64,000 nt of DNA from Raja brachyura (taxonomy: Eukaryota). The notes under the pieces are model-generated. The model worked only from the letters and a program-made list of their open reading frames with translations, was not told the origin of the DNA and did not search any database. Below, piece by piece: positions 4,391-64,000 of the stretch; positions within the stretch are counted from its first letter, which is position 1; the number at the start of each line of letters is the position of its first letter. Location: NCBI GenBank assembly GCA_963514005.1, contig OY740813.1, forward strand, positions 13,950,001 through 14,014,000, in the 5' to 3' direction. The position numbers and the translations under genes are program-made.

Positions 4391-5060
4391 TCCTCTCCGA
4401 CCAAAGGGGAACCAAATTGAAGAACTAACTACCATGGTGTACCTAGTCCAGAGGGTTCAGTGTAGTGACTTACACAAATGGAAGTTATCTGTTATTATAG
4501 TGCATTTCACAATGCCCCTGTGTCTTCCAGCCTGTGCTCTCTTTATGACAGTGTGCGCAGGTAGTGTATGAGCACCTCCATCAAATTGGAAGATCGATTT
4601 TTTTTACTTTCTGGAGTTTTACTTCTTTTGTTACAAAAGGATTATTGATGTTTAAAAAAAAATTTTTTTTTAAGTATCAAGTGAATTAGGTGGTCAGGCC
4701 CTTAAACAGCTTAAGCAGCGTGTGGGACAAAATTGCCAGAGACACCAACAACGAGGAACAGTCAGGAGATTGTTTTTGACGACAAACTGGACAGAATGTG
4801 GAACCTTCGATCGCAGAAACTCAGTCGGGTCATTTTTTTGGAGTTGATTATTTTAATAATCTGTTTCATTTTTAACATGTGTCGATCTGATGCTTTTTAG
4901 TTATTAGTTAATTCAAGTAGAAGTTGATTTATCACAATATCAAGCCAGAAGAGGCGGGGTATACTGATGGGAAAAAATGTTGATAAATGCAGCTTAATGT
5001 TTAATATATGTGTACTGGCATTTTATTGGCAAAAAAAAAAAGAAGCACTGGTTACAGCCA

Positions 5061-5556
5061 AGATCGACAGAAAATGCTGGAGTAACTCAGCGGCACAGGC
5101 AGCATCCCTGGAGAGAAGGAATAGGTGATGTTTTGGGATGAAACCCTTCTACAGACTGAGAGTCGGTCGATGGGGGGGGGGGGGGGGGGGGGGGGGTGTA
5201 GGAGGGAAACTAGAGGTATGAAAAGGTTCAGAACAAATCAGAGCCGGCACCAATGACTAAGGCAAGGTGGAGCCCACAAAGGTCCATTGCTGAAGAGGTG
5301 ATAACGAAGGGATATATGGATGCGAACAGTGGACCTGGCAGGATGACTAGGGTGGGGGAGGGGCAGTGAGAGAGAGGGAACGCTGGGGTTCCTTCATACC
5401 TCTCGTTTCCCTGCTCCCTGGTTCTCGGTCTGAAGGAGGGTCTCGACCTGAAACATCTTCTATTCCTTTTCTCCAGAGATGCTGCCTGACCCGCTGAGTT
5501 ATTCCAGCATGTTGTGTCTATCTTCGGTGTAAATCAGCATCCGCAGTTCCTTCCTA
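5061..5556. mobile_element. Fold-back pair of PLE termini
   Basis: AATGCTGGAGTAACTCAGCGG...GGAGAGAAGGAATAGG (5072-5125) is inverted relative to TATTCCTTTTCTCCAGAGATGCTGCC...CCGCTGAGTTATTCCAGCAT (5461-5510). Confidence 0.8.
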
Positions 5557-5829
5557 CCCTGGTTACAGCCGCCTTTGTTGTACTGGGTGTGAGGTTGGAA
5601 ATCTGATAGCTGATGTATACACATCAGATGAACAACAATGTTTTGATGAGGTTGATTTTTGACGTCCAGCGACTGTAATTTTTTTAAGGAGGGTGACGTC
5701 ATTGTAGCATTTTGACGTAATTAAGATCCATCACGTGTTGAAATACATACAGGATGTCAGAGATTAAATAGCAGCGCTATGAATGGCCAGTGGTGTAACA
5801 AAGGGGGAGATGTGTTAAAGTCAATGCTG

Positions 5830-8027: not shown

Positions 8028-8807
8028 TCCCCTCTCCTCCCCTCTCCCATCGGGCAGAAAGTACTAAAGCTTGAAAGCGCATTATCATCAGATTTAGGAA
8101 TAGCTTCTTCCCCTGTTATCAGTCTTCTGAAGAGCTTCTCTTATCTCGGATGCCGAGCATGTATTCAAAATCTTCCAATCTGCCTCATCCTGGCTCTCGC
8201 TCTTTTTCCACATCTGCACTTTCTCAGTAGCTATAACACTTATACTCTGCAATCTGTTTAGTTTCTCTTTTTTACTACCTATTGTACTCCTGTATGTTAT
8301 GATTAGGCTGGATAACACAGCAAAACAACGTCTGTCACTAATGAACAAACACCAATAATCAAATATTCTGACTTTCCACATTCAAGGAGATCATGATCAT
8401 GAAACACTGCCAAAGACCAGGACAGGGGGGGCGTTAAACGTTGGTGCTTCACAGATCCAGGGGGTGCCCGGCATTGATGCTGCCCATGGCTGCTGTCTGT
8501 GTGGAGTTTGCAGGGTCCCCCAGTCTCCCATTGCTCTGGTCTCTCTGGCTTCCCCAGGGTGGCTGAATGCTGTAGAGTAGCCCTTTCTGTCAGCTAAAGG
8601 CAAAACAGAAATCAGCTTCTACCTAGGAGCTGCCGGTCAGGTGCAGGTGGACTGAGAAACATGAAGATTGGCAATAGGACCCAGGAGATTACTTAACCGG
8701 GAGACAGCAGGGACTCGAATGACCAAATGGCACCCACCTGAGTTCATAGACCCTAACCCTCATGCTGCCCCAGCTAAGAGCTGTGTTGTTCCATTGTCAG
8801 TACACGT

Positions 8808-10254: not shown

Positions 10255-10372
10255 TGTTAAAGAAGGAACTGCAGATGCTGGAGAATCGAGGGTTACACAA
10301 AAAGCTGGAGAAACTCAGCGGGTGCAGCAGCATCTAAGGAGTGAAGGAGATAGGCGACGTTTCGGGCGTTTC
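10255..10372 (-). mobile_element. Short PLE-terminus insertion with 11-bp TSD
   Basis: GAGCGATGAAG is duplicated at 10244-10254 and 10373-10383. The insert is nearly identical to 62681-62791. Confidence 0.85.
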
Positions 10373-16005: not shown

Positions 16006-16272
16006 TGTAAAAAAAAACAAAACTAATGTTTTACTTTAAATTGGATCTGAGAGGTTCAGGGTGGAAACAGGAGAGTTGTGGCCAGATGCCAGAACCAATA
16101 CAGTAAAACCAACAGCAGCTTTTTATATGGGTATCAAACACTTTATAATATAACTGGGTTAAACACTTAAACTTAAACACTTAAACTATTAAATGGGAAA
16201 ACTTAGAGTTGCAACTTGTTGTGCTGAGGGAACCTAAACCTATCTGCCAGTTATTTTCCAAAATGCTTATTT

Positions 16273-16466
16273 TCCGAAGATGGACACAAAATGCTGGAGC
16301 AACAGCAGGACTCAACAGGCAGCATCTCTGAAGAGAAGGAATGGGTGACGCTTTTACATTCTAGCACCCATTCCTTCTCTCCAGAGATGCTGCCTGTCCT
16401 GCTGAATTACTCCAGCATTGTGTGCCTATCTTCGATTTCAACCAGCATCTGCGGTTCTTTCCTACG
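16273..16466. mobile_element. Fold-back pair of PLE termini
   Basis: AGAAGGAATGGGTG / CACCCATTCCTTCT inverted arms around 16335-16380. Confidence 0.8.
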
Positions 16467-16841
16467 CTACGTTTCCGAAATCCTTTTTCTGACTGCTTGT
16501 TACCAATTGCTGTACCACTCTGGGTCTTACTGATATAGTTACAGGTCAGTTGTTCACAACTGTTCAAATTCATCCCCAATCTCCCGTTGAAGATGTGGAT
16601 TTGATCTATTGGGAGAGACTGGGCTGCCTAGGACTTTATTCTTTGGAGCGCAGAGGGCTGAGAGGTGATCTGAAAGAGGGGCGTAGAATCATACAGCACG
16701 GAAACAGATCCCTCAGCCCAACTCATCCATGGTGACTAAGCTGACCCATCAAAGCTGGCCCCATTTGTCTGCATTTTGCCCATATCCTTATACATGGATG
16801 GGAAAGGTTTGAGAAGGATATAGGCAAGCTTAGATGGGGTA

Positions 16842-17809: not shown

Positions 17810-18232
17810 GATCAAACCCTTCCTCGCCCGTATCCACCTATCACTTGTAGAAACAAAGAATTGCAGATGCTGTTTTAGAAAAAAAAGGACCAAAGTGCTG
17901 GTGTAACTCAGCGGGTCAGGGATAGGTGACATGGATAGGTGACATTTCAGGTCGGGAGTCTAAAGAAGGGTCCCGACCTGAAACATCACCAATCTATGCT
18001 CTCCGGAGAACCCGCTGAATTACTCCAGCACTTTGTGCCCACTTATCACTCACTCGGCTTCGACCCACCCCCATTCGCTCTTTTCCTGCATTCTCCCCCC
18101 TATTCCATCAGATTGAAGAAGGTTCCCAACACAATAACTCGTCTGTCCATTCCTTTCACAGATGCTGCCTGACCCACTGAGTTCCTCCAGCACTTTATGT
18201 TTTGCTCATGATTCCAGCATCTGCATTTCTTG
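17810..18232. mobile_element. Nested/inverted PLE termini
   Basis: ATAGGTGACATTTCAGGTCGGGA abuts GTCTAAAGAAGGGTCCCGACCTGAAACATCACC; a second pLTR lies at 18110-18232. Confidence 0.7.
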
Positions 18233-19422: not shown

Positions 19423-19480
19423 TAAATAACTGTGTGCCAGTCAGTTTAATTTTGGTGGTGTGGGGGGCAAAATTGGAATC

Positions 19481-19822
19481 CATTCCAAGCGAGCGTATGG
19501 ACATTCCAAGGGAGCGTATGGACATTCCAAGGTAGTGTATGGACATTCCAAGCGAGCATATGGACATTCCAAGCAGGTGTATGGACATTCCAAGGGAGTG
19601 TATGGACATTCCAAGCGAGCGTATGGACATTCCAAGGGAGCGTATGGACATTCCAAAGGAGCGTATGGACATTCCAAGCGGGTGTATGGACATTCCAAGC
19701 AAGCGTATGGACATTCCAAGCAAGCGTATGGACATTCCAAGCAGGCGTATGGACATTTCAAGCGGGCGTATGGACATTCCAAGCGGGTGTATGGACATTC
19801 CAAGCGAGCGTATGGACATTCC
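19481..19822. repeat. 21-bp minisatellite, 16.3 copies
   Basis: Unit CATTCCAAG-N5-GTATGGA with no indels. Confidence 0.95.
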
Positions 19823-20284
19823 TTTTGACAGGTAACATTTAGTCAGGGAGAAGAGACATGGATTTATGAAGGGAAGGTGGTTTGAGGATAACAATGATTT
19901 GTGGAAATATCAAAGAAGGTTGATGAAAACCAGAGGCTGATGTCATCTATATGGATGTAGGCAAGGCTTTTGACAAGATTCCACATGGCAAAAAAGTTCC
20001 AAAGTCGGGGAAATCCGAGAGAGAGTGACAAACTGGATGAAAACTGATCAATGTCAATTTCTAACACACAATGGTATTTTGCACATTTTCATTCAAATCT
20101 AACATTTGTAAATAAGAGAAGTGCCCTTTATGGTATTCATCAGCGGCTGAAATTTGGCTAGAAAATGCGAACATCTTATTGGAAAGGAACCTAACCTGGT
20201 CTGGCTTAAAAATGTCTCCAGTCTCAGACCCATGAAGTGACCCATTGGTAACAACAACAGCAAGTTGTTTCATAAAGCCTTTTT

Positions 20285-28489: not shown

Positions 28490-28850
28490 TTATTCCACCA
28501 GGGAGGTCTTATCAACTAGTGAACCAAGGAGCTGTGGAGGGAGCTGTCTCTGCAGGAAGCGGGAAGGGGCGGGGACGGGAAGATGGTAGCGGGATCACGT
28601 TGAAAATGGCGGACGTGTTGGAGAATGATGTGCTGCATGCGCAGGCTGGCGGGGTGAAGGGTGGGGACCAGGGGAACTCGACCCTTGTTCCATCTGGGGG
28701 TGGGGGGGGGGGGGGGTTGGGGAGGGGAGGGGGAGAGGGAGCAGAACTACCGGACGCAGCAGGCGAGGGATCCATCTACAACTGCAGGGGAGACCCCATG
28801 TTTACTAAAGGCAGTGGACATCTCGGATGTTCCCAGAATGGAAACGTATC
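28490..28850 (-). mobile_element. PLE internal fragment (RT to GIY-YIG linker)
   Basis: The minus strand encodes R(N/K)xRVPLVPTLHPASLRMQHIILQHVRHFQRDP, homologous to 61905-62040. Confidence 0.75.
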
Positions 28851-28952
28851 TTTGGGTCTCATTGCGTCGCTGGTTAATATCCGAACGGCGTATAATATCC
28901 AAACAAGACGTATAATATGATTCCCAAACCGCTGAAGAAGCTCACTCACTAT

Positions 28953-29240
28953 TTGTTTAAGAAGGGACAGCAGACGCAGGAAAATCGAAGGTAGACAAAA
29001 GTGCTAGAGAGACTCAGCGGGTGAGGCAGCATCTATGGAGTGAAGGAAATAGGCAACGTTTCGGGCCGAAACCCTTGGGTTTCGGCCCGAAACGTTGCCT
29101 ATTTCCTAAGCCCTCGCGTTTCGGCCCGAAACGGTGCCTATTTCCTAAGCCCTTGGGTTTCGGCCCGAAACGTTGCCAATTTCCTTCGCTCCATAGATGC
29201 TGCTGCACCCACTGAGTTTCTCCAGCACTCTTGTCTACCA
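28953..29240. repeat. PLE-terminus palindrome with a triplicated 40-bp unit
   Basis: Long inverted arms centred at GAAACCC-TT-GGGTTTC. GTTTCGGCCCGAAACG(T/G)TGCC(T/A)ATTTCCT is repeated three times. Confidence 0.9.
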
Positions 29241-29894: not shown

Positions 29895-30058
29895 CAACTC
29901 AGCCTCAGTGTCAAATTAACCTCGGCATCAAATCAGCCCCAGTAGCAAATCAACTTCAGCATCAAATCAGCCTCAGTAGTAAATCATCCACAGTATGAGC
30001 TTAACCTCAGTATCAAATCAACCTCAGCATCAAATCAACCTCAGCATCAAATCAACTC
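29895..30058. repeat. 17-bp minisatellite AACCTCAGCATCAAATC, resuming at 31873-31925
   Basis: Tandem copies lie on both sides of the Rex1 insertion. Confidence 0.8.
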
Positions 30059-31872
30059 AGGGCCAATCTGAAAAAGGGAATTAGGAATGCTAAACTCAAT
30101 CACAAACAGCGGATTGAGGAGCATTTCCGAAACAACTCCGACCCCAGGCGCATGTGGCAAGGAATTAAGTCCATTGCCGACTACCATAAAATCAACACCC
30201 CCCCCCCGGACAACGCCTCCCTTCCTAATGAGCTAAACCACTTCTATGCTCGCTTTGACCGGGACAACAAAACTCCCGCCATCAAAGTTGCTCCACCCCC
30301 GAATGAACAACCCCTCAGTCTCTCCACCTCTGCTGTACAAGACGCACTGAGCAAGGTGAATGAGCACAAAGCTGCCGGCCCCGATGGCATCCCCGGGCGG
30401 GTGCTCAGGGCATGTGCCGGACAACTATCCCTGGTCCTCACTGACATTTTCAATCTGTCACTGGCCCAGGGTGTCGTCCCCACTTGCCTCAAGACATCTA
30501 CCATTGTGCCAGTGCCCAAACAATCAGCGACAGGGAGTCTCAACGACTACCGGCCAGTGGCACTCACCCCTGTCATCGCTAAGTGCTTTGAGCGGCTGAT
30601 CCTGGCTCACCTCAAAGCCAGCCTCCCCCCCACACTGGACTCCCACCAATTTGCCTACCGGTCAAACAGGTCTACAGAGGACGCCATATCGACGGCCCTA
30701 CACTCTGCCCTGACCCACCTGGACAGCAACAACACCTACATCAGGCTGCTGTTTATTGACTTCAGCTCCACCTTTAACACTGTCATACCCGCTAGCTTGA
30801 TCACCAAATTCAGCGGTCTTGGCATCTCCACCTCCCTCTGCAATTGGACACTGGATTTCCTCACTAACAGACCACAGTCTGTTAGGGTCAACAACCTCAC
30901 CTCCTCCACTATAACACTGAACACTGGCGTGCCACAGGGCTGTGTGCTCAGCCCTCTCCTCTACTCCCTCTTCACGCATGACTGCATCCCCAAGTATGGC
31001 TCCAACGCCATCATAAAATTTGCCGATGACACCACGGTGGTAGGACTGATCAGTGATAATGACGAATCAGCCTACAGGGAGGAGGTCCAGCACCTGACTA
31101 CCTGGTGTGCCAACAATAACCTCGTCCTCAACTCCCAGAAGACGAAGGAAATAATTGTTGACTTTCGGAAGAACAGAGGGGGCAGACACACCCCCATCCA
31201 TATAAACGGGACTGAGGTGGAGCGGGTCTCCAACTACAAATTCCTCGGGGTACACATCTCAGAGGATCTGTCCTGGTCCCTCAACACCTCCAAGCTGATC
31301 AAAAAGGCGCAGCAGCGGCTTTACTTCCTGAGGAGGCTCACAAAAGCCCACCTGTCCCCCCCTAGACCCTGACCAACTTTTACCGCTGTACCATCGAAAG
31401 CAACCATACCACCTGCTTTACGGTATGGTACAGCAGTTGCACCGTAGCAGATAGGAAGGCACTACAACAGGTGGTGAAAACCGTCCAGTACATCAGTGCC
31501 CTGCTCCCTGCCATGGATGCCCTCCACCGAAAACGGTGTCTGAGGCGGGCCGGGAAGATCATCAAAGACCCCTCCTACCCTAACCATGGACTGTTTGCCC
31601 TCCTCCCATCAGGGAGGCGGTACAGGAGCCTCAGGTCCCGCACCAGTAGGACGAAGAACAGCTTCTTCAACTACACCATCCGACTGCTGAACTCGGAGCC
31701 CAGCTGATAGATTTGTCTGTACCCTGTATTTATTTATTTTCCATACTGCTACCACTGCACTCTGTATTTATTTTTCTATATCGCTATCACTAAGAATGAC
31801 GCTAAACTGCATTTCGTTGTACCTATACTTGTATTTGTGCAATTAAACTTGAATTGAATTGAATTGAATTGA
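30059..31872 (+). mobile_element. Young Rex1/Babar LINE, 5'-truncated
   Basis: RT ORF, 3' UTR and (GAATT)n tail at 31851-31872. Confidence 0.92.
30152..31707 (+). pseudogene. Rex1 reverse transcriptase; RT domain open, one frameshift near 31355
   Basis: 406-aa ORF with AGPDG, NDYRPVALT, FIDFSSTFNT, GVPQGCVLSPLL, KFADDT. It continues in the -1 frame as TLTNFYRCTIES...IIKDPSYPNH...SGRRYRS. Confidence 0.9.
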
Positions 31873-34047: not shown

Positions 34048-34854
34048 GTCTGAACATCAGTCAAACTAAAAACGCAACCCCAGTCTAATAGCAATCGAGG
34101 GTAATCAATCACCATCAGCCTAATCCCAGTCTATCTCCAGCTAAAGACAGTCCAGTACAAGTACAACGAAAACCTTATCCACGGAACACAAAGTGCTGAA
34201 GCATCTAAGTGGCTCTGGGGCACAAGGGGAGGCAATGTTTCGGGTCAGGACCCTTCTTCAGACTCTAAGGAACTGCAGATACTGTAAACTTGTGTAAACA
34301 CAAAGTGCCGGAGTAACTTAGCATGTCAGACAGCATCTGTGGAGGACATGGGTAGGCCATGTTGCAGGTCGGGACATGTTTTCAGTCCAACTTTAATTTA
34401 ATGCATAGGCAGTGTCACACCAGTCTAACCCAATCTAAGCCCAGTTTAAACGCCGGGAAGAAGTAAAGCCCTCCCCACTAGCACAGAGCCTGCACCAGCC
34501 CCAGGCATTTCCAGCACCCAGCGTGTTGTGGATGCCAGGATGATCAGAACATGCTTAACCAGTATTGTGCTACATGCCTCTTTGTCCCTCCACGCCCCAG
34601 ATGTCTCCTGCCTCTCCAGAACCCCAGGGGAGTACAAAGATTGGGGCGGCACAGTGTAACTGCTGCCTCACAGTGTCAGTGGCCCGAGTTCGATCCAGAC
34701 TCAGCTGCCGCCTGTGTGGAGTTTGAATGTTCTCCCTGCGAATGCGTGGGTTTTGTCTCCACAAATGCTGCCTGACCTTCTGTGTTCCTCCAATAAAACC
34801 CAAAATGCTGGAGAAACCCAGCGGGACAGGCAGTGTCTGTGGAAGGAACTCTTT

Positions 34855-35323: not shown

Positions 35324-36939
35324 CAGTGGCTTGCAAAAGTATTCATACCCCTTGAACTTTTCCACATTTTGTCACGTTACAACAACAAGCGTAAATGTAT
35401 TTTATTGGGATTTTATGTGATAGACCAACACAAAGTGGCGTATAATTGTGAAATGGAAGGAAAATGATACATGGTTTTCAAATTTTTTTATAAATAAAAA
35501 ATTGAAAAGTGTGGCGTGCAAAAGTATTCAGCCCCCTTTACTCTGATACCCCTAACTAAAATCCAGTGCAACCAATTGCCTTCAGAAGTAACCTAATTAA
35601 TAAATAGAGTCCACTTGTGTGTAATCTAATCTCAGTATAAATACAGCTGTTCTGTGAAGGTCTCAGAGGTTTGTTAGAGAACATCAGTGAACAAACAGCA
35701 TCATGAAGCCCAAGGAACACACCAGACAGGTCAGGGATAAAGTTGTGGAGAAGTTTAAAGCAGGGTTAGGTGATAGAAAAATATCCCAAGCTTTGAACAT
35801 CTCATGGAGCACTGTTCAATCCATCATCCTAAAATGGAAAGAGTATGGCACAACTGCAAACCTACCAACACATGGCCGTCCACCTAAACTGACAGGCCGG
35901 GCAAGGAGAGCATTGATCAGAGAAGCAGCCAAGAGGCCCATGGAAACTCTGGAGGAGCTGCAGAGATCCACAGCTCTGGTGGGATAATCTGTCCACAGGA
36001 CAACTATTAGTCGTGCACTCCACAAATTGGGCCTTTATGAAAGAGTGGCAAGAAGAAAGCCATTGTTGAAACAAAGCCATAAGAAGTCCCGTTTGCTGTT
36101 TGCCACAAGCCATGTGGGGGACACAACAAACATGTGGAGGAAGGTGCTCTGGTCTGATGAGACCAAAATTGAATTTTTTGGCCTAAATGCAAAACACTAT
36201 GTGTGGCGGAAAACTAACACTGCACATCACCCTGAACACACCATCCCCACTGTGAAACATGGTGGCGGCAGCATCATGCTGTGGGGATGCTTTTCTTCAG
36301 CAGGGACAGGGAAGGTGGTCAGAGTTGATGGGAAGATGGATGGAGCCAAATACAGGGCAATCTTGGAAGAAAACCTGTTAGAGTCTGCAAAAGACTTGAG
36401 ACTGGGGTGGAGGTTCACCTTCCAGCAGGACAACAACCCTAAACATACAGCCAGAGCTACAATGAAATGGGTTAGATCAAAACATATTCATGTGTTAGAA
36501 TGGCCCAGTCAAAGTCCAGACCTAAATCCAATTGAGAATCTCTACCAAGACTTGAAAATTGCTGTTCACAGACGCTCTCCATCCAATCTGACTAAGCTTG
36601 AGCTATTTTGCAAAGAAGAATGGGCAAACATTTCAGTCTCTAGATGTGCAAAGCTGGTAGAGACATACCCCAAACGACTTGCAGCTGTAATTGCAGCGAA
36701 AGGTGGTTCTACAAAGTATTGATTCAGGGGGCTGAATACCTTTGCATGCCACACTTTTCAGTTTTTTATTTGTAATAACATTTGGAAGCCATGTATCATT
36801 TTCCTTCCACTTCACATTTATGCACCACTTTGTGTTGGTCTATCACATAAAATCCCAATAAAATACATTTATGTTTGTGTTTGTAACGTGACAAAATGTG
36901 GAAAATTTCAAGGGGTATGAATACTTTTGCAAGCCACTG
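35324..36939 (+). mobile_element. Full-length Tc1 transposon, Passport-like (IR/DR type)
   Basis: About 213-bp TIRs starting CAGTGGCTTGCAAAAGTATTCA (35324-35536 and 36727-36939) with an internal direct repeat; TA on the left flank. Confidence 0.95.
35703..36722 (+). pseudogene. Tc1 DD34E transposase, 339 codons, single in-frame TAA at 35985-35987
   Basis: ORFs 35703-35987 and 36027-36722 are in the same frame. Motifs [19 protein letters not shown] and [10 protein letters not shown] are present. Confidence 0.93.
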
Positions 36940-40899: not shown

Positions 40900-41345
40900 C
40901 ACATGTCCCAGGCAGTATGAGACAATGAACTGGGCGATCGATTTGCTGAACACCTTCACTCAGTCTGCCTGGGCCTACATGATCTCCCGGTTGCCAAACA
41001 CTTTACTCCTCTTCACATTAGCATACAAACCTTTCTGCCCTGGGCCTCCTTCATTATCAAAGTGATGCCAAACGCAAATTGGAGGAGCAGCACCTCATAT
41101 TTCACTTGGGCAGCTTTCAACCCAGCAGTTTGATATTAATTTCTCTAACTTCAAGTAACCCTTGCATCCTCTCTCTCTCCCGCCCCCACCCTAGTCGTCA
41201 TACTAGTTTCACTGTCGTCCTGTTGAGTTTCATTGTCTATATTACACCTAGCCCACAGCCAACAATGGACTGTTTCCTTGATCATTTTTTGCATATCTTT
41301 CTTTCATCTGTTCAATATCTCTCTATAATCACCGTTTGTCTCTTG
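40900..41345 (+). mobile_element. PLE 3' fragment (GIY-YIG C-terminus and UTR)
   Basis: LGDRFAEHLHSVCLG...KLEEQHLIFHLGSFQP. Confidence 0.8.
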
Positions 41346-41999: not shown

Positions 42000-42470
42000 G
42001 CCACCCGGAAATGGGAGCGGGCTCCGCCGCTGACGTCACGGGAAAGTGGTCTATCTGCTGCAGCGGGGCCGGGCTCTCGCGAGAGGTGCGGCGGCGACGT
42101 GACGCAGTTTCCGCTTCCCTTTCCCAGTATGCTCTCTCTAGGAGACGGCCATGGCGGAGTATGGTAGCATCCTCACCCCGGCGGCGCTCGGCCTCGGCGC
42201 CGGACACTCGCCTGGGCCCAAGGTGGAGGCTTTCGCCGACGCGTTGCAGAGGGCGCGGCAGGTAAAGGAGGGAGCCCGGCTTCCCGCGCTGGCCGGCGGC
42301 AGCTGCGCGGAGTCAGGGCCGGGGCGGGGAGAGAGGAGGGAGGGGGGGGGGGGGGGGCAGGGCCTTCGGCGGAGGCCGGGGAGGCCTGAGTGTAGCCGGG
42401 GACCGGGGCCCCGGGGCAGGCCTCATGGCGCCCACGGCTGCCCGGCGGATCACCTCCCCGAGCCGGCTCC
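42000..42470 (+). promoter_or_regulatory. CpG-island promoter and first exon region
   Basis: Sharp rise in GC and CpG. CCGGAA (ETS) at 42005-42010, TGACGTCA (CRE) at 42031-42038, TCTCGCGAGA at 42075-42084, a pyrimidine-rich initiator-like TTTCCGCTTCCCTTTCCC, and Kozak GCCATGG. Confidence 0.88.
42151..42261 (+). CDS. FUBP3: Coding exon 1 of a far-upstream-element-binding protein (FUBP family, most likely FUBP3)
   Basis: MAEYGSILTPAALGLGAGHSPGPKVEAFADALQRARQ followed by CAG|GTAAAG (phase 0). AFxDAxQRARQ is the conserved N-terminal A-box of FUBP1/KHSRP/FUBP3, whose exon 1 ends at this position. The short, non-poly-Gly N-terminus (MAE...K-x-E-A-F) and long intron favour FUBP3. The family call is firm; the paralog call is less so. 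Confidence 0.75.
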
Positions 42471-51430: not shown

Positions 51431-54400
51431 ATGTTTCCACATTGGAACATAGTAATTAAACAAATGAAGGAGGAAATTACTCCACTTCTATTTGTGTTGG
51501 CATCACACATTTTGTATATTGGCAATTAGGCTGCATTTAAATGTTTATTTTTCATTAACAACGTGTCAATAATTTATGTGTTCACACTATATTTGTGGCA
51601 AATTGTTACTGACAAGAAATTTTGCCTTCATACTCTTAATTGATCCAGATAACCTTTTTAATTTTTGGTTCTGAGATTAAAAATGAGCAAGTGACAAGTG
51701 AAACAGCCAGCTTCAGACCGAACCTGGCAGCCATCTGTAAATAGATTCACGAGGCATCTTTATTTCTGAATCGGATACTGAGAAAATTGCTGATTGGGGT
51801 TGATGTCAAACAGTGACATTTGGTCTAACGAGGTGCATGTTTTTGAAGCTTTACTCCAGGTTGCATGTTAACCCACTGAGAGATTTTTATTTTCCCTGGT
51901 GCTGATGTATGTTCCTCGTGCAGGGAAGGCTTTTTTGTCACACTTTGCTGATACTAAACCAACTGTAAACTTTTTGAAATGGAAATGAAATATCGAGACT
52001 GACGAGTACTGTAATTGAGGTAACTGGATGGATGCCCCACTGATATTCTTCAACTTCAAATCGTTTTGTACGAGGGGAAAGATGAGTTTATCAGCAGAGT
52101 ATTTAAGGTTGTGATGGAAGCTGCTGCACAAAGCTGAATATTGGAAGAATCAAATGTAATTTTTGAAGTGGAGGCCAGTTGGAACCCTGTGGATGTTTAA
52201 TGCAGGATAGAAAAAACTGTTATTTCCGATGATGTTTGTGGATGACTTGAAATTTCAATTCCTTTTAGTCTTCCTATCCCGCCTAGCCTTTTCTCATCTC
52301 TTTCAGCAATCGCTCTCTCTCAAAATATTGAAGCTAGAATAATGGAAAATCCAACAAAATGATGCAGGTGAGGGGATTGAGTGACAAGGGAGCAGTTGAA
52401 CTGAGGAGTAGAAAGGATGGCGGAACCAAGTTGCCAGGATTAATGTGTAGGAAAGAACTGCAGATGCCGGTTTAAATCAAAGTAGACACAAAATGCCGGA
52501 GTAACTGAGTAACAGGCAGCATCTTTGGAGAGAAGGGAATGGATGACGTTTTGGTCGAGACCAAGAAAAGTACTCCAGCATTTTGTGTCTTGCCAGGGTT
52601 GATGCCTCACTCGATAGTACTAACTTAACAATTCCCTCTGGTCTAAAACCTTTTAAATGTTTTCAATCGCACCACCAAATCCTGCTAGCTGAGTGGTTTC
52701 TTTGGCTACTATTTATAGATGCTATATAAATGCAAGTTATTGACTTGAATCCTGTCCTTATCTCTTTAGTCTTCCTCTGACTATCTTTGGGGAAAGTATC
52801 ATATATTAAAAGTAGTTTATTTCTTGCGTGCACTGGTCTAAGCATACTTCAGTTTTGGAACACCATATTTAAGAATTCCTGATCAAGGCTATGATATTTG
52901 AAAAATCTGATGAGAAATGTTACACTGTTCAAACTGTCTGAAAATACTTTTGATAAGTTACGATAAGAAATTGCAACTGATTTTAGTTTATGAATTTTTC
53001 TGTTGTGTGTTACATGTTTGGGGTTAGGGTTACAATCCAGGGTCAAGTCATATACAGAATCAAAAATATGTTTTCCCAATGACTGCTTCAATGTCAAAGG
53101 TCCTGTTATTGCATTGCTAATTCGGAATATTCTAATGGACTTCAATAATCCCCTGACAATCTTGAGCAAGAATGTGCTGGGCAAACGGGAGTTATAGCAC
53201 TGAAAATATATTTGCTGAAAACATTTTTTTGGTGCCTGATGGAGTAAAAGTAATGGGTTTACATATGTGCTGCACATGGTTGGGTGAAGAGAGAAATGTA
53301 TTTTCAGTGTGAGCTTGGTTTAGAGGGAATTATTGTGGCACTTTCACATTGAGGTTTAATGTATCCAAGTGTTCCTTGTTTAAAGTATGTTACCAATTCC
53401 CTCGTATTTAGTGCTCTTCCTGGCTGCTGTTTAAGATGTATTGTTTCAGATAAAATTGATAATTTGTAAAATAATAGGAGAGAAGGAAAAATGTAATGCT
53501 TGGGGATACTGCTGATAGGAGAAAGTGAAAAAGGTGAATGAAATATTTTCCTGCACTGTACCACATTGTGGGTTGTACCTTGGTTTCTCTCGCAGTAAGT
53601 TGTTGAATTTCTTCCATAAAATACCCAGTGTAGGACAAACGCTTACCGGTTCATGGGGAAGGTATAGACTAAAAGGAGAGTCCATTCTAAAACAGCCTGC
53701 CACTCGGGAGCTGGCTGTGAAGAATATGTAGAAAATCTCTCAGCAAGTTCTAGTCCCATCCGCTAAGGAGAACTCGAGTGAGAAATCTGTAGGAGAAAAT
53801 ATTTTTGTGTCCAAGGCTTAAAATATTTCTTGTCCTTGTAGTTCAAAAAATTGTTTTACAATGTACATAATCTCTCTTCTCCAAGTTCTCATTGACTAAA
53901 CTTCAATAGTGTGACATCCAATTAAGTGTTTGGATTTCATAGTTAATTCCTGTTGCACTTAATTTTATTTTGCAATGGGCCGATGTTCTTATTGTTCTCT
54001 GCTACCCAAGGCAGTATTTTTCTGATTCCTTCAGTCTGGTGAAAGATTACTTAAACACTGGTTAGCAATGTTTTGATCTGGTTGCTGATCCATTGCTGCT
54101 TTTGTTCATTTGCAGAGAATGGTATAATAAAGGCAGTTTATTCATGTCTCTGCCAACTGCAGGCATTTCCTGAATGAATTATTTAATCTGCTCTGTAACA
54201 TCAAGGTTCAGAAAATCTCCACCTGCCCTGTTGCTTTTTCTCCAACAACATCAGCATGGGCTGGCAGCAAAAATTATGTACAATTTCAACCTGCAGAAAT
54301 ATTTTGCTTGCATTGCATTGTGTATTGCCCAGTTTGGCGTACAGATAAACTTCAGCTTATATTTATATCAGTCACGTGCCTTGTAAGCTGATACATTAGT

Positions 54401-55369
54401 TACGTAGTTACTCACTGGGACATGTTCCTGTTTATTACTGCTGTCTTCAAGCGACGAGTCGGGCAGATAAATTTCTGTTTGGAGAAGTGAAGACCCAGTG
54501 AGAAATGTTCTTGAAATACAACTTAGTTGTCAGTTGATCATTCATTTATTGGTTGAAGGTTGCCTGATATTCTGGTGGTCATTCAGAGGTAGTGTATCAA
54601 GTGTCTGTCTAAGATAATGAAATGTTTACTGTTGTATCGCAAACTTGTATTTTACATGCAATATAATTACATTTTAGAATTACCTTGTTTTCAGTGCAAG
54701 ATTGAGTGTAATATTGCAAGCTAATGGTTGTTGATTGGTGTATATTGATAGCTTGTGTGTTGATAGTTTGTAGATAATTATTGACTCTAATATAGTTATT
54801 TTGCCAATATGTGACTTGACAAATGCAGATTGTATCCTTAAACTGTGGTCGGGTGCTAAAGTGTAGACTGGCACCTGCTGATATTTTGTTTGATTGCTGT
54901 ACCTGTTATGACTAGGGCATATGGTCTGAAGAAGGGTCTCGACCCAAAACGTCACCCATTCCTTCTCTCCAGATATATTGCCTGTCCCGCTGAGTTAGTC
55001 CAGCTTTTGGTGTCAATCTCAGGGCATATGGTGGGTTGTGAAAAAAATCTTGTTAATTCAAGCAGCCATTTCCATTTACTCCAAACTAACTTTAACGATT
55101 TGCCTTGGGATTATAGGTTCTGTCAAATAATTTCCCTAATAGTGTATAATTATCATAATTATATAATTAAATTATGTATTTCACCAAAACTGTGCATTAG
55201 AACAATGGAGAATATTTAAGGTACGTGTAGATCTGTACACTGTGTTAGTATTATAAATGGATAACAGTGTGAAAGAATAATAAATTATCACTTTGATCTT
55301 TTAGTATCAGTGACATGAGATGTATAAAACCGACTAAACTACAGTTTATTTCCCACCTTAATTTTTGTG

Positions 55370-57527: not shown

Positions 57528-58182
57528 GATTCAATTCAATTCAACTTTAATGTCATTGCACAGATACAAGTATGGGTACAACGAAATGCAGTTTAGCGTC
57601 AGTTCGTAGTAATAGCAATATAGAAATAAATACAGAATGCAGACAATGTGGACGGAGAGACTGGAGAAATCTATCGGTGGGACTCTGAGTTTAGCAGTGT
57701 GATGGTGTTGTTGTAGAAGCTGTTCCTCATCCTACTAGTGCGGGACCTGAGGCTCCTGTGCCTCGCTGATGGTAGGAGGGCAAACAGTCCATGGTTAGGG
57801 TGGGAAGGGTCTTTGATGATCTTCCCGGCCCGCCTCAGACACCGTTTTCGGTGGAGGGCATCCATGGCAGGGACCAGGGCACTGATGTACTGGGCGGTTT
57901 TCACCACCCGTTGTAGTGCCTTCCTATCTGCTACGGTGCAACTGCTGTACCATACCGTAAAGCAGGTGGTCAGGTTGCTTTCGATGGTACAGCAGTAAAA
58001 GTTGGTCAGGGTCTGGGGGGGGACAGGTGGACTTTTGTGAGCCTCCTCAGGAAGTAAAGCCGCTGCTGCGCCTTTTTGATCAGCTTGGAGGTGTTGAGGG
58101 ACCAGGACAGATCCTCCGAGATGTGTACCCTGAGGAATTTGTAGTTGGAGACCTGCTCCACCTCAGTCCCCTTTATATGGAT
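57528..58182 (-). mobile_element. Rex1 copy, 5'-truncated, same subfamily as 30059-31872
   Basis: Near-identical peptides (SNYKFL.VHISEDLSWSLNTSKLIKKAQQRLYFLRRLTK, MVKT.QYISAL) and (GAATT)n tail. Confidence 0.92.
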
Positions 58183-60625: not shown

Positions 60626-60926
60626 ATGAGAGAAAGTTCATTGGCCAGGATAGGCAGGAGCATGGCAGGGAACGAGGAAGCGCTGTTGGATTGAATTGCA
60701 TTTATTTAAATGCGAGAGGCCTAACGGGTTGGTGGATAAACTCAAGGCACAGTTTGGTATGTACAACTGGAATGTCGTAGCTGTTATAGAAACCTGGCTA
60801 AGAGAAGGACGGTACCCTCAGCTTCATGTGTAGGAAACAACTGCAGATGCTGGTTTAAATCAAAGGTAGACACAACATGCTGGAGTAACTCAGCGGGACA
60901 GGCAGCATCTCTGGAAATAAGGAATG

Positions 60927-60960
60927 GGTGACGTTTCGGGTCGAGACCCTTCTTCAGACT
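60927..60960 (-). ncRNA. Minimal type I hammerhead ribozyme motif in a PLE terminus
   Basis: Minus strand AGU-CUGAAGA-A-GGGUC(UC)GACCC-GAAA-CGUC^ACC: conserved core, stem II, palindromic ACGU stem III and GUC cleavage triplet. Confidence 0.7.
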
Positions 60961-61001
60961 CTTTCAGACTTACTGAAGCGCCTTCAGAGCTTAATGTTCC
61001 A

Positions 61002-62962
61002 TTAATCATTCCCCAGCCCTGCATGGCCCGTTTTTAATCAGAACTGCCCTGGCAGACCCATTGTTTCTGCTTGTTCATCCTCTCTTCCCCCCACCCCCCC
61101 CCCCCCCCCCGGGTCAAATCCCTCCCTACCTATGTCCAAGCCACCTCACACGCTCTTCGTCTCTTCAATTACTTCTGTTTTTCAGGCCCCCGCTATCTCA
61201 TCTTTACTATGGATATTAAGCCACTCTACACCTCCAACCCGCACCGGGAATGGCTTAAAGCCCTCCGTTTCTTCCTCGACCCCAGAGCCAGCCAATTTCC
61301 GTCTACTAACACGCTCCTCCACCTTGCAGAGCTGGTCCTTACCCTTAACATATCCGTCAACTCCTCTCACTTTCTCCAAAGCCAAGGCACCCCAGCTACA
61401 CCTGCCTCTTTGTAGGGCACGTCGAACAATCACTGTTCCAGGCACACACTGTCCCTATTCCCAAACTCTGCCTCCGTGACATTGACGACTGCATCGGTGC
61501 TACCTCCTGCACCCATGCCGAAGTCACTGACTTCATCAACTTCACGACTAATTTCCATCCTGCACTAATTCATTTGGACCATCTACGACATTTCCCTACC
61601 GTTTCTAGATCTCACCGTCTCCATCACAGGACACAGACTATCGACTGAAATCTATTACAAACCCACTGACTTCCGCAGCTATCTTTCCCACCCTGCTTCC
61701 TGTAAAGACTCTATCCCCCTACTCCCAATTCCTCCGTCTACGCTGCATTTGTGCCCTGGATGAGGTGTTCCATACCAGGTCCTCGGAGATGTCATTCTTT
61801 AGGGAATGGAAGTTCCCCTCTTCCATTATACATGAGGCTGTCACTAAGGTCCCCTCGATATCCCGCAGCTCCGCTCTTGCTCTCTCTGCCCCCCCCACCC
61901 CCATTCGTAACAAAGACAGTCCCCCTTGTCCTCGCCTTCCACCTCATCAGCCGTCGCATATAGCACATAATCCTCTGACATTTTCGCCATCTCCAATTGG
62001 ATCGCTCTACTAACTACATCTTCCCATCTCCACCCCTTTCCGCAGAGACCGTTCTCTCCGCAACTCTCTGGTCAACTCGTCTCTTCCCACCCAAACCACT
62101 CCCTCCCCAGGTACTTTCCCCTGCAACCTCAGGAGATGCAACGCCTGTACCTCCCACTTCGACTCCATCCAAGGACCCAACAGTCTTTTCAGGTGAGGCA
62201 GAGGTTCACTTGCTCTTCCTCCAGCGTCATCTACTGCATCTGCTGTTCCAAGTGTAGACTCCTGTATATCGGTGAGACCAAGCGCAGACTCGTTAATCAT
62301 TTCGCTGAAGACCTCTGCTCAGTCTGCCTAAACCTACCCGATCTCCCGCTTGATCAATACTTTAATTCCCCCTCACATTCCCACACTGACCTTTCTGTCC
62401 TGGGCCTCTTCCATTATCAGAGTCAGGCCCAGTGCAAATTGGAGGAACAGCACCTCATATTTCCCTTGGGTAGCTTGCACCCCCGCGGTATGAACATTAG
62501 AAATGTAGAAAATAGGTGCAGGAGGAGGTCATTCGGCCCTTTGAGCCAGCACCACCATTCATTGCGATCATGGCTGATCGTCCCCAATCAATAACCCGTG
62601 ATTGACTTCTCTAGATTCATGTAGCCCGTGCTTTCCCTCTCTCCCCATCTCCTCCCCCTTCCCAGTTCCCTTACCAGATTGTTAAAGAAGGAACTGCAGA
62701 TGCTGGAGAATCGAGGGTTACACAAAAAGCTGGAGAAACTCAGCGGGTGCAGCAGCATCTAAGGAGCGAAGGAGATAGGCGACGTTTCGGGTCGAGACCC
62801 TTCTTCAGATTTACTGTCTCCGACTACATTTTATCTCTGTACCGCCCACTCCCCTGACATCAATCGGGCTGAAGAAGGGTCTCGATCCAAAACGTCACCC
62901 ATTCCTTCTCTCCAGGGATGCTGCCGGTCCCGCTGAATTACTCCAGCATTTTTTGTCTACCT
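61002..62962 (+). mobile_element. Penelope-like retroelement (RT plus GIY-YIG), 5'-truncated and degenerate
   Basis: LPTYVQATSHALRLF, IFTMDIKPLYTS, LAELVLTLN, IDDC, and FQVRQRFTCSSSSVIYCICCSKCRLLYIGETKRRL; 11-bp TSD TTAATGTTCCA at 60991-61001 and 62963-62973. Confidence 0.9.
62778..62811 (-). ncRNA. Minimal hammerhead core, second intact copy
   Basis: CUGAAGA-A-GGGUCUCGACCC-GAAACGUC^GCC. The 5' strand of stem I is replaced by flanking sequence. Confidence 0.55.
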
Positions 62963-64000
62963 TTAATGTTCCAGCATTCTGGTGCTTCATGAGAGATAGA
63001 GGTGGTGGGGGGGGGGGGGGGGGGGGGGGGGCGAAGAGCATGTGGTGTTGGTTTATTGATCAAGGAGATTGTCATTGCGGTAGTGCGAGATGACATTATT
63101 GATAGTTTGTCCGGTGGGGCTGAGAAATTTAAAAATAAAAGCGATGGTCACCCTGTTGGGAGTGTATGATAGGCTTCCAAATAGGCAACGGGAATTAGAA
63201 GAACAAATATACCAACCAGGAGATTACAAGCAGCTGCAAGATAACTAAAGGTTGTCATTGAGGTTTTTAACTTTCCCAATACAGACTGGAACTGCCATAG
63301 TGTTAAGGTCTTAGACGGGCGAAATTTGTCAGATGTGTTCAGGAAAGTTGCCTCTGGCAATATGTAGAGCGCCCTTCAAGGGGGCAGGACAAAGCTTGAT
63401 TTTCTCTTAGGATAGCTTAAACTATGCATGCAGGAACTGATCCCACAGATTCTGGCCAGTGTAAGAATGTAATCAACCAAGCAAGTGCTTTCACTAACCC
63501 CAGAAGAAAATAGGTCTGCTCAGATTAAAAATAATTAGCAGGTTCATTCTGACCAAAATGAAACTAAATCGTTTGGTTTCAACGTGTTTGACAGATATAT
63601 GGATAGAAAAGGTTTGGAAGGCCCTAGTGGTTACTGTCACTTATTGGTATTTGTGTTGGCAGTTAGTGACGCAATGAAATCTCTCAAACTGAAAACAAAT
63701 GTATGACCAGTCATGGCTGATATTGGTTGAAATCACAATGTGAAGGATGTGCCGAGAGGCTGGTTTGAATCGTCCTTGGCAACATATGAAACAACAACTT
63801 CTTTAATGTTGCAAATGCTCAGGGCCAAGATCAAAATAAAGAAATCAAGTGTTTATTTGCCACATGCATCGGATGTGAACAGGAACAATGAAATTCTTTC
63901 TTGCTGCAGCTTCACATTTTTAGATGCAACAACAATTTTACAATAAATTATCAGTGAAATAAACTGGACCATAGTGGAAAAACCAAAGTACATAGTAGTT

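What the first reader, a model, noticed from the sequence alone, without database searches (positions are those of the whole stretch)
60830..60987. Family of short mobile PLE-terminus elements carrying a minimal hammerhead ribozyme
Seen in sequence: a ~130-bp unit (CTGAAGAAGGGTCTCGACCCGAAACGTC-ACCCATTCC...CCAGCATCTGCAGTTCCTT) occurs well over 15 times. Several copies sit alone between 10-11-bp TSDs: 10255-10372 (GAGCGATGAAG) and 60830-60987 (AGCTT(C/A)ATGT). The unit is the terminus of the RT/GIY-YIG element at 61002-62962. It begins with CUGAAGA-stem II-GAAA-CGUC, intact at 60927-60960 and 62778-62811 and mostly decayed by CpG mutation (CGAAA to CAAAA/TGAAA) elsewhere. Established: PLEs encode minimal type I hammerheads with a palindromic stem III that favours dimer cleavage. 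Inference: these behave as SINE/retrozyme-like non-autonomous elements mobilised by the PLE. Sense copies inside intron 1 (44144, 54926, 62869) appear decayed, while the intact copies are antisense.
Basis: partly seen in the sequence, partly recalled or inferred. Interest (0 to 1): 0.75.

Follow-up and report, generated by a model that had tools for sequence, protein, structure and literature searches.

The report
Solo ribozyme ends of Penelope-like retrotransposon
These short repeats, in what is likely a skate or ray genome, are the hammerhead-motif end of a known class of jumping gene (Penelope-like elements), and because many start at almost the same base they are likely run-off copies of the start of that element's own RNA, not a separate mobile family.

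Summary
The observation mostly holds. The ~130-bp unit has 36 hits in the window (0 in 10 controls). It is the terminus of a Neptune/Nematis-type Penelope-like element (PLE), and 8 of 19 insertions tested have target-site duplications (null 3%). Its minimal hammerhead motif is a known PLE feature, and large numbers of single copies are already described. Three of 20 cores are intact, helix I is only about 2 bp, there is no covariation, and the claimed intron strand bias is unsupported (p=0.43).

The SINE/retrozyme reading is weak. There are no Pol III boxes, ends do not fall at the cleavage site, and solos mix with PLE-attached copies in a tree.

The ends are fixed. 3' ends cluster at two sites about 35 nt apart, the known PLE tail. 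13 of 36 5' ends fall within about 5 nt of the ribozyme's first base, at an initiator-like TCAGT (p<1e-6); public runs show the same edge.

Best reading: the PLE enzyme likely primes internally near the 5' end of its own mRNA, runs off, and inserts a short dead-end copy. I found no such account in print. It is untested.

The parts
60820..60829 (+). left TSD of the solo unit (9/10 match to 60988-60997)
60830..60960 (-). solo unit with tail: starts at AGT before the CUGA box, ends at the distal 3' site (49 nt after the CTCCAGC anchor)
60927..60960 (-). minimal type I hammerhead motif: intact core, 4-bp helix II, palindromic ACGU in place of helix III, 2-bp helix I; predicted cleavage after 60930
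   Evidence: feature list from PMC4209133
60961..60987 (-). 27 extra nt at the 5' junction, made of re-copied pieces of the unit's first bases and a short fold-back
   Evidence: sequence
60988..61001 (+). two overlapping target copies: right TSD of the solo (60988-60997) and left TSD of the PLE (60991-61001)
61002..62962 (+). 5'-truncated, frameshifted PLE: RT part (about 61209-61718), linker, GIY-YIG, 3' UTR, terminal unit without tail
   Evidence: tblastn with natural relatives
62122..62148 (+). CX4CxxC linker motif, a mark of Neptune/Nematis-type rather than Penelope/Poseidon PLEs
   Evidence: PMC8557442 passages
62187..62498 (+). GIY-YIG endonuclease coding part
   Evidence: Pfam PF01541 E=0.006, below the curated cut-off; 49-70% identity to 20 relatives, named ones from rays, skates and sharks
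62680..62809 (-). young solo unit of a second subfamily, inserted into the PLE 3' UTR; intact core, 1-bp helix I, tail present, 5-6-bp TSD
   Evidence: empty-site joints in all 4 runs; about 99% identical to 10255-10366
62866..62962 (+). terminal unit of the PLE, attached to its 3' UTR; core decayed (G12 to A); ends at the proximal 3' site
62963..62973 (+). right TSD of the PLE (11/11)
10255..10372 (-). young copy with 11-bp TSD and tail, 5'-truncated inside stem II
54924..55020 (+). cleanest solo: starts at the CUGA edge, no tail, 12-bp TSD
5060..5558 (.). head-to-head compound insertion of two UTR-attached termini, 12-bp TSD, tail on one arm only
17846..18038 (.). head-to-head pair with 11/12 TSD and tail on one arm, apparently landed in the 3' UTR of another PLE copy
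28952..29239 (.). head-to-head compound with repeated fold-backs at the palindromic junction, 13-bp TSD, tail on one arm
52446..52589 (.). head-to-head pair with 13/15 TSD, tail on one arm
34185..34387 (-). head-to-tail dimer: the tail end of one unit is joined directly to the AGT start of the next; no TSD found

Best explanation
The unit is the hammerhead-motif terminus (pseudo-LTR end) of several Neptune/Nematis-type PLE subfamilies, and the solo copies are likely short run-off cDNAs that the PLE's own RT-endonuclease made from the 5' end of PLE RNA. SHOWN: 3' ends cluster at two sites about 35 nt apart; 5' ends pile up at -3 to +1 of the CUGA box; TSDs of 10-15 bp; inverted pairs with one tail; solos in more than one subfamily. 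INFERRED: (1) PLE transcription starts at the A of an initiator-like TCAGT just before the ribozyme. (2) The protein primes reverse transcription internally about 95 or 130 nt downstream, as the anole PLE protein does in vitro. (3) On the mRNA's 5' repeat this copies only start-to-priming-site, like a retroviral strong-stop cDNA, which is then joined to the target. (4) Longer copies need upstream-started or tandem RNA, or a template jump. (5) The ribozyme rides along and does not set the ends; most solos are probably dead ends, since the anole enzyme needs RNA beyond the priming site.
For: 5' ends (my classes): 13 of 36 at the edge, 8 extend upstream, 15 internal; 0.6-0.9 expected at the edge under a uniform stop rate, P<=3e-13, or P<=2e-6 counting only the 8 best-defined junctions. 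All 7 upstream-extending copies scored have C at -4; none of the 4 edge copies that keep AGT does, and all 4 have G there. An extra G marks capped mRNA ends in L1 (PMC11702581 passages). Public runs: the largest listed loose-end pile in each of 4 runs is at the 5' edge (62869), ending in TCAGT with agreement of only 0.35-0.39; depth jumps 13- to 25-fold between adjacent bins there; 7 of 8 listed X18 joints from 62809 continue by the two bases to -3 and then leave. 3' ends: of 16 printed, 6 at +9 to +16 and 6 at +49 to +51 after the anchor, 2 more consistent with the distal site, 2 elsewhere. This matches the two RT start sites and 30-40-nt tail in PMC11167929. The head-to-tail dimer and the re-copied starts at 60961-60987 fit an enzyme reaching the end of its template. 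Solos are not one clade (0 of 200 bootstraps; 6 changes versus 6.3 shuffled). In the anole PLE, ribozyme mutants insert normally and no RNA reads end at the cut site.
Against: No transcription start site was measured, and raw RNA reads show no pile-up of ends anywhere (table 6; a poly(A) library from an unnamed organism, 6% read). In D. virilis Penelope the start lies 46 nt before a 75-nt intron whose 3' end abuts helix I, so the start is about 120 nt upstream of the ribozyme, not at it. The anole protein is Poseidon-clade; this element has the Neptune/Nematis linker. The depth jump is inflated by subfamilies with other UTRs and by a 4-nt insertion in the reference. The extra G is post hoc, n=4, and in 2 cases can come from the flank or the partner arm. 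One well-supported subfamily (6 copies) has no UTR-attached copy in the window, and starred branches alone do not exclude a single origin of solos. No full-length PLE was available to show that the unit sits at the 5' end of the ORF. The 5' classes were assigned by eye.
Confidence: 0.5

Rival explanations
1. One reading: solos are a true non-autonomous family (SINE- or retrozyme-like). Solo or dimer master loci are transcribed and re-copied in trans by the PLE protein.
For: Defined 5' and 3' ends and TSDs are what a short family shows. The subfamily with the young pair (about 99% identical) has 0 of 6 UTR-attached copies in the window. A pLTR alone sufficed for trans-mobilisation in a rotifer (PMC3846280 passages). 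Non-LTR retrozymes are described as pLTR derivatives, with many monomers (bioRxiv 10.64898/2026.07.22.740005). Tail-bearing solos might support priming at the proximal site.
Against: No Pol III boxes or tRNA. One dimer, no array; 1 of 36 5' ends at the cleavage site. Solos are interleaved with attached copies in the tree. The same edge appears in at least three sequence types, which would need several independent origins. RNA reads cover both strands about equally. The anole enzyme needs RNA to +172, beyond its start at +111 to +118.
Confidence: 0.2
2. The template is PLE RNA, but its fixed 5' edge is not a transcription start. It is either a 3' splice site (pyrimidine tract plus CAG) or the edge of a protein-protected ribozyme fold left after 5'-to-3' decay of longer RNA.
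For: In D. virilis the intron ends at helix I. Many PLE ribozymes in the published alignment have YAG shortly upstream. The edge coincides with the 5' strand of helix I. The anole ribozyme folds only with protein.
Against: A spliced template would leave a shared upstream exon between TSD and unit; none is seen at 54924, 32023, 62810 or 3809, and edge flanks do not resemble each other except through inverted partner arms. Several solos keep the AG that splicing would remove. The PLE sense strand is pyrimidine-rich throughout (0.64-0.78), so the tract is not specific. Protection does not predict an extra G.
Confidence: 0.2
3. Solos are ordinary, randomly 5'-truncated PLE insertions. The edge peak comes from ascertainment (the unit is conserved, UTRs differ between subfamilies) plus microhomology joining.
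For: This is the default account in print ('probably related to truncated PLEs'). 15 of 36 copies do start internally. The profile starts at the edge by construction. GT/TCTG microhomology with the target is seen at 54924 and 62810.
Against: At 8 junctions the base next to the edge belongs to a TSD, a partner arm, a tandem unit or an empty site seen in reads, so a missed UTR cannot explain them; P<=2e-6 under uniform truncation.
Confidence: 0.1

Closest known systems
Minimal type I hammerheads in pLTRs of metazoan PLEs (Cervera and de la Pena 2014, PMC4209133; read: main text parts 1-2 of 4, supplement parts 1-2 of 3)
   Same: Same architecture: CUGANGA, an extra base before helix II, G10.1-C11.1, GAAA, palindromic 15.2-16.2, no loop 3; sits in the PLE terminus; thousands of single copies per genome in fishes, coelacanth and Xenopus.
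   Different: Helix I is only 2 bp, the short end of the published 2-6 bp range. No shark or skate term was found in the supplement searched (one file not searchable). The parts read do not map the ends of single copies.
Poseidon PAc of Anolis carolinensis (Frangieh et al. 2024, PMC11167929; read: parts 1-2 of 4; supplementary figures as text only)
   Same: Two internal RT start sites that define a 30-40-nt tail; AC-rich start; both DNA strands nicked and extended; ribozyme dispensable for insertion.
   Different: Different clade (no CX2-5CxxC linker). Its ORF starts in stem II, while this unit has CUGAAGA with no AUG there. A fixed 5' edge of solo copies is not reported in the text read; Fig. 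S2 could not be seen.
Neptune/Nematis-type EN+ PLEs (PMC8557442, passages)
   Same: RT, then CX2-5CxxC linker, then C-terminal GIY-YIG; 5' truncation, inverted copies, tail at one end.
   Different: No RT tree was built, so Neptune versus Nematis is not resolved.
Non-LTR retrozymes (PMC7229834, passages; bioRxiv 10.64898/2026.07.22.740005, parts 1-3 of 5)
   Same: Non-coding, type I hammerhead, related to the PLE pLTR; monomers dispersed; present in the one chondrichthyan sampled.
   Different: Defined as tandem repeats with a ribozyme in at least two consecutive units, processed to circles. Here there is one decayed dimer, and ends do not follow the cleavage site.
SINEs (definition in PMC8969392, passages)
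   Same: Short, non-coding, high copy number, TSDs, dependent on a partner's RT.
   Different: No Pol III promoter or tRNA/5S head; the whole unit is PLE sequence.

Membership tests
EN+ Penelope-like element (61002-62962) | RT followed by C-terminal GIY-YIG endonuclease | tested here: met
   (broken frame; Pfam hit below cut-off; relatives 49-70% identical over the EN part)
EN+ Penelope-like element | optional 30-40-nt tail and inverted 5'-truncated partners | tested here: met
   two 3'-end clusters about 35 nt apart; tail on one arm in 5 of 5 TSD-bounded inverted pairs
Neptune/Nematis-type PLE | CX2-5CxxC linker before GIY-YIG | tested here: met
   62122-62148; the same pattern was found in 7 of 20 relatives by a strict search; definition
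Neptune/Nematis-type PLE | placement in the RT phylogeny | not tested
   no reference set of PLE RTs at hand
Penelope/Poseidon clade | absence of the CX2-5CxxC linker | tested here: not met
minimal type I hammerhead of PLEs | conserved core, extra base before helix II, G10.1-C11.1, palindromic 15.2-16.2 | tested here: met
   complete in 3 of 20 copies (one with a G-U at 10.1-11.1); majority letters in public runs match the core
minimal type I hammerhead of PLEs | helix I | tested here: inconclusive
   0-3 bp per copy, 2 bp in the majority form; published range 2-6 bp
minimal type I hammerhead of PLEs | covariation in helices I and II | tested here: inconclusive
   84% of cells paired versus 8-52% when slid, but covariation score 0.285 versus 0.275 shuffled, 177 of 500 shuffles as high (18 mostly decayed copies)
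minimal type I hammerhead of PLEs | self-cleavage as dimer or with protein | not testable with these tools
   predicted minimum-energy folds of monomer and dimer do not show the full ribozyme fold; no Rfam hammerhead match at E<=1
non-LTR retrozyme | tandem units with a complete ribozyme in at least two consecutive units | tested here: not met
   one head-to-tail dimer in 64 kb, with neither core fully intact; window only
non-LTR retrozyme | RNA ends at the cleavage site, circular RNA | tested here: inconclusive
   no read-end pile-up, but a poly(A) library cannot show a 130-nt circle; 1 of 36 DNA 5' ends at that site
SINE | Pol III A/B boxes, tRNA- or 5S-derived head | tested here: not met
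   4 full units scanned, one weak B-like word only; 0 tRNAs
SINE | own lineage distinct from the partner element | tested here: inconclusive
   solos interleave with attached copies, but only 3 of 25 branches are well supported

The most novel reading that the evidence does not exclude
The masses of lone PLE hammerheads in animal genomes are integrated 'strong-stop' cDNAs. The PLE protein primes internally on the 5' repeat of its own capped mRNA and runs off at a start site one to three bases before the ribozyme, so the genome records both the start site and the two priming sites. As a dimer it would prime one DNA strand at each site, giving inverted pairs with exactly one tail. Full-length transposition would then need a template jump or tandem read-through, which would explain why PLEs need tandems and why solos so outnumber full elements.
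Probability: 0.35. Interest if true: 0.7.

Novelty: new member of a known kind. Interest (0 to 1): 0.4.

Why it matters
The ribozyme-in-PLE link and the abundance of single copies are known, so the family as such is a new member, not a new kind. What matters is the end geometry. How PLEs transpose, why they form tandems, and what their minimal hammerheads do are open questions. If solos are run-off cDNAs, a very abundant repeat becomes a ready-made record of the PLE start site, priming sites and strand pairing, testable from one assembly plus CAGE. It would also warn annotators against calling these repeats SINEs or retrozymes.

Tried and rejected
No whole genome is held, so there is no genome-wide tally. 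An exact motif from the unit found 0 loci in viral, metagenome and prokaryote collections. Rfam gave no hammerhead, only chance microRNA matches on inverted pairs. Sequence after the unit at 28952 first looked like an ORF start; it is the TSD, so no copy here shows the unit leading into the ORF. I first took the element for Poseidon; the linker motif rejects that. The pyrimidine tract as evidence for a splice acceptor is rejected as unspecific. Strand bias of intact cores in the gene is rejected. The ESM Atlas did not identify the exon at 42151-42261, nor did Pfam on a frame that was off by one base. The TSD test for 62680-62809 used a left end 10 nt off and counts as a miss among the 19; by eye it has 5-6 bp, not significant alone. 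The sigma-70 scan is irrelevant to an animal. Look-ups in earlier findings gave nothing bearing on this locus.

Full report
Setting. The endonuclease part at 62187-62498 has 20 relatives among 45 candidates; the named ones are from rays, skates and sharks, so the host is likely a batoid. No whole genome is held. The evidence is therefore the 64-kb window, one lay of four public runs and papers.

The repeat is real. A profile from 7 window copies finds 36 hits and none in 10 Markov controls. Of 19 insertions tested, 8 have a flanking direct repeat scoring at least 8 (null 3.2%) and 10 at least 7 (null 6.4%). But 10255-10372 starts inside stem II and lacks the CUGA box. 60830-60987 abuts the PLE at 61002-62962: the two TSDs overlap at 60988-61001, and the flanks on both sides read as one endonuclease-like frame of an older LINE (the CR1 label is recalled). 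Two successive insertions or one coupled event both fit.

The parent element. Natural relatives align across RT, linker and GIY-YIG at 61209-62501 in several frames. The linker has CX4CxxC, which marks Neptune/Nematis-type and not Penelope/Poseidon elements (PMC8557442, passages). The element ends in the first ~94 nt of the unit. A second, young unit sits antisense in its 3' UTR at 62680-62809; joints skipping it are seen in all four runs.

The ribozyme motif. It has the features of the published minimal type I hammerhead of PLEs (PMC4209133). Of 20 copies scored, 3 have a complete core and 4-bp helix II: 60959, 62810 and 32023. Helix I is 2 bp in the majority form, the short end of the published range, and 1 bp at 62810. 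Helices pair in 84% of cells against 8-52% when slid, but covariation does not exceed shuffles (177 of 500). Predicted minimum-energy folds do not show the full ribozyme, and Rfam does not detect it. Decay is mostly at CpG. The intron strand bias is 2 of 4 versus 0 of 4, p=0.43, and two of those copies belong to one compound locus. Cleavage is untested. Published minimal hammerheads cleave poorly even as dimers, and the anole one only with protein.

3' ends. Of 16 ends fixed by TSDs, 6 lie 9-16 nt and 6 lie 49-51 nt after a conserved anchor. Two more fit the distal site (one had a mis-set coordinate, one an anchor outside the print), and 2 lie elsewhere. This is the optional 30-40-nt PLE tail, shown in the anole element to lie between two internal RT start sites (PMC11167929). 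Five of 8 head-to-head pairs have an outer TSD, and in all 5 one arm has the tail and the other does not.

5' ends. By eye, 8 of 36 copies extend upstream. Two pairs of these share UTR sequence, with scores 29 and 32 against a null 95th percentile of 21. 15 start inside the unit, often at the palindromic junction of an inverted pair. 13 start at -3 to +1 of the CUGA box. A uniform stop rate predicts 0.6-0.9 there; P is below 1e-12, or below 2e-6 for the 8 junctions fixed by a TSD, partner arm, tandem unit or empty site. Only 1 copy (16365) starts at the predicted cleavage site. All 7 upstream-extending copies scored have C at -4; the 4 edge copies that keep AGT all have G, 2 of them ambiguously. 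In one search the largest listed loose-end pile in every run is at this edge, with low agreement beyond TCAGT, and depth jumps 13- to 25-fold between adjacent bins. That jump is inflated by other subfamilies and by an insertion in the reference, and the tables shown are only the best-supported rows. Raw RNA reads cover both strands about equally and show no pile-up of ends.

Are solos their own family? There are no Pol III boxes or tRNA. There is one head-to-tail dimer and no array. In a tree of 28 copies, edge solos lie on both sides of the best-supported split and interleave with attached copies (6 changes, shuffled mean 6.3, 0 of 200 bootstraps with one change). Resolution is poor, and one subfamily has no attached copy in the window. 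A SINE- or retrozyme-like master cannot be excluded but is not needed.

Mechanism. The simplest account of a fixed 5' edge in several subfamilies is a fixed RNA 5' end. TCAGT fits the initiator consensus (recalled); a rotifer pLTR has an initiator-like TCACT (PMC3846280, passages), and Penelope's promoter lies in the pLTR (PMC2377424, passages and Discussion). In a pLTR-ORF-pLTR mRNA only the 5' repeat is followed by ORF sequence, which the anole enzyme needs (to +172). Priming there would copy about 95 or 130 nt and run off. The re-copied starts at 60961-60987, the tail-to-start dimer at 34185-34387 and the extra G (a cap mark in L1, PMC11702581, passages) fit this. Against it: no start site is measured, the D. 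virilis start lies about 120 nt upstream with an intron ending at helix I, and the biochemistry comes from another clade. I give it 0.5; an independent family 0.2; a splice-site or nuclease-protected edge 0.2; random truncation 0.1.

What is known. Minimal hammerheads in PLE termini and thousands of single copies, ascribed to truncated PLEs, are in print, as is the derivation of retrozymes from pLTRs (bioRxiv 10.64898/2026.07.22.740005, parts 1-3 of 5; PMC7229834, passages). Searches returned no paper, among the listings and texts I saw, that describes this batoid family or a fixed 5' edge of solo copies; no listed paper combined pLTR, Penelope and strong-stop. Repbase, Dfam, subscription journals, bioRxiv supplements and the anole paper's Fig. 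S2 and sequence file could not be seen and may hold either. PMC8969392 and PMC8848866 were seen as passages only.

Verdict. A real, known kind of feature, correctly spotted but over-read as a SINE-like family. The fixed ends are the part worth following up. New member of a known kind; interest 0.4.

Noticed in passing
window 5060-5558, 16269-16471, 17846-18038, 28952-29239, 52446-52589: All 5 TSD-bounded inverted pairs have the tail on exactly one arm, as if each nicked strand were primed at a different one of the two RT start sites.
   Followed up: partly
window 60988-61001: Two TSDs overlap (a target triplication) between a solo unit and a long PLE copy of the same sequence type; may be one coupled event.
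   Followed up: partly
window 62680-62809 and 17846-18038: Units have landed inside the 3' UTR of other PLE copies, which recalls cleavage of the element's own ORF-pLTR junction in vitro.
   Followed up: no
window 29040-29170: Repeated fold-back copies of stem II and the bases after it make near-perfect palindromes; these give the chance microRNA matches in Rfam.
   Followed up: partly
window 42020-42262: GC-rich island with a probable first coding exon (ATG at 42151, donor after 42261) ending in a motif that recalls FUBP-family proteins (recalled, not confirmed); no second exon found to 64000.
   Followed up: partly
window 62499-62600: About 100-bp high-copy fragment, probably a CR1-type LINE 3' end (recalled), inserted antisense at the end of the PLE ORF; similar copies at 8807, 14688, 16842, 22454, 24404.
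   Followed up: no
window 28519-28830 (-) and 40927-41133 (+): Further PLE coding fragments.
   Followed up: no
window 35988-36722 (+): 244-aa frame that looks like a Tc1/mariner transposase (label recalled).
   Followed up: no
window 30005-31372 (+) and 57671-58162 (-): 455-aa reverse transcriptase frame of a LINE, apparently young, and a related 3' piece.
   Followed up: no
window 19430-19842: 21-bp tandem repeat, open in several frames.
   Followed up: no
protein P0009, C-terminal end: A shark gene model reads through the PLE 3' UTR and appears to end inside a similar hammerhead unit, suggesting the same layout in sharks.
   Followed up: no
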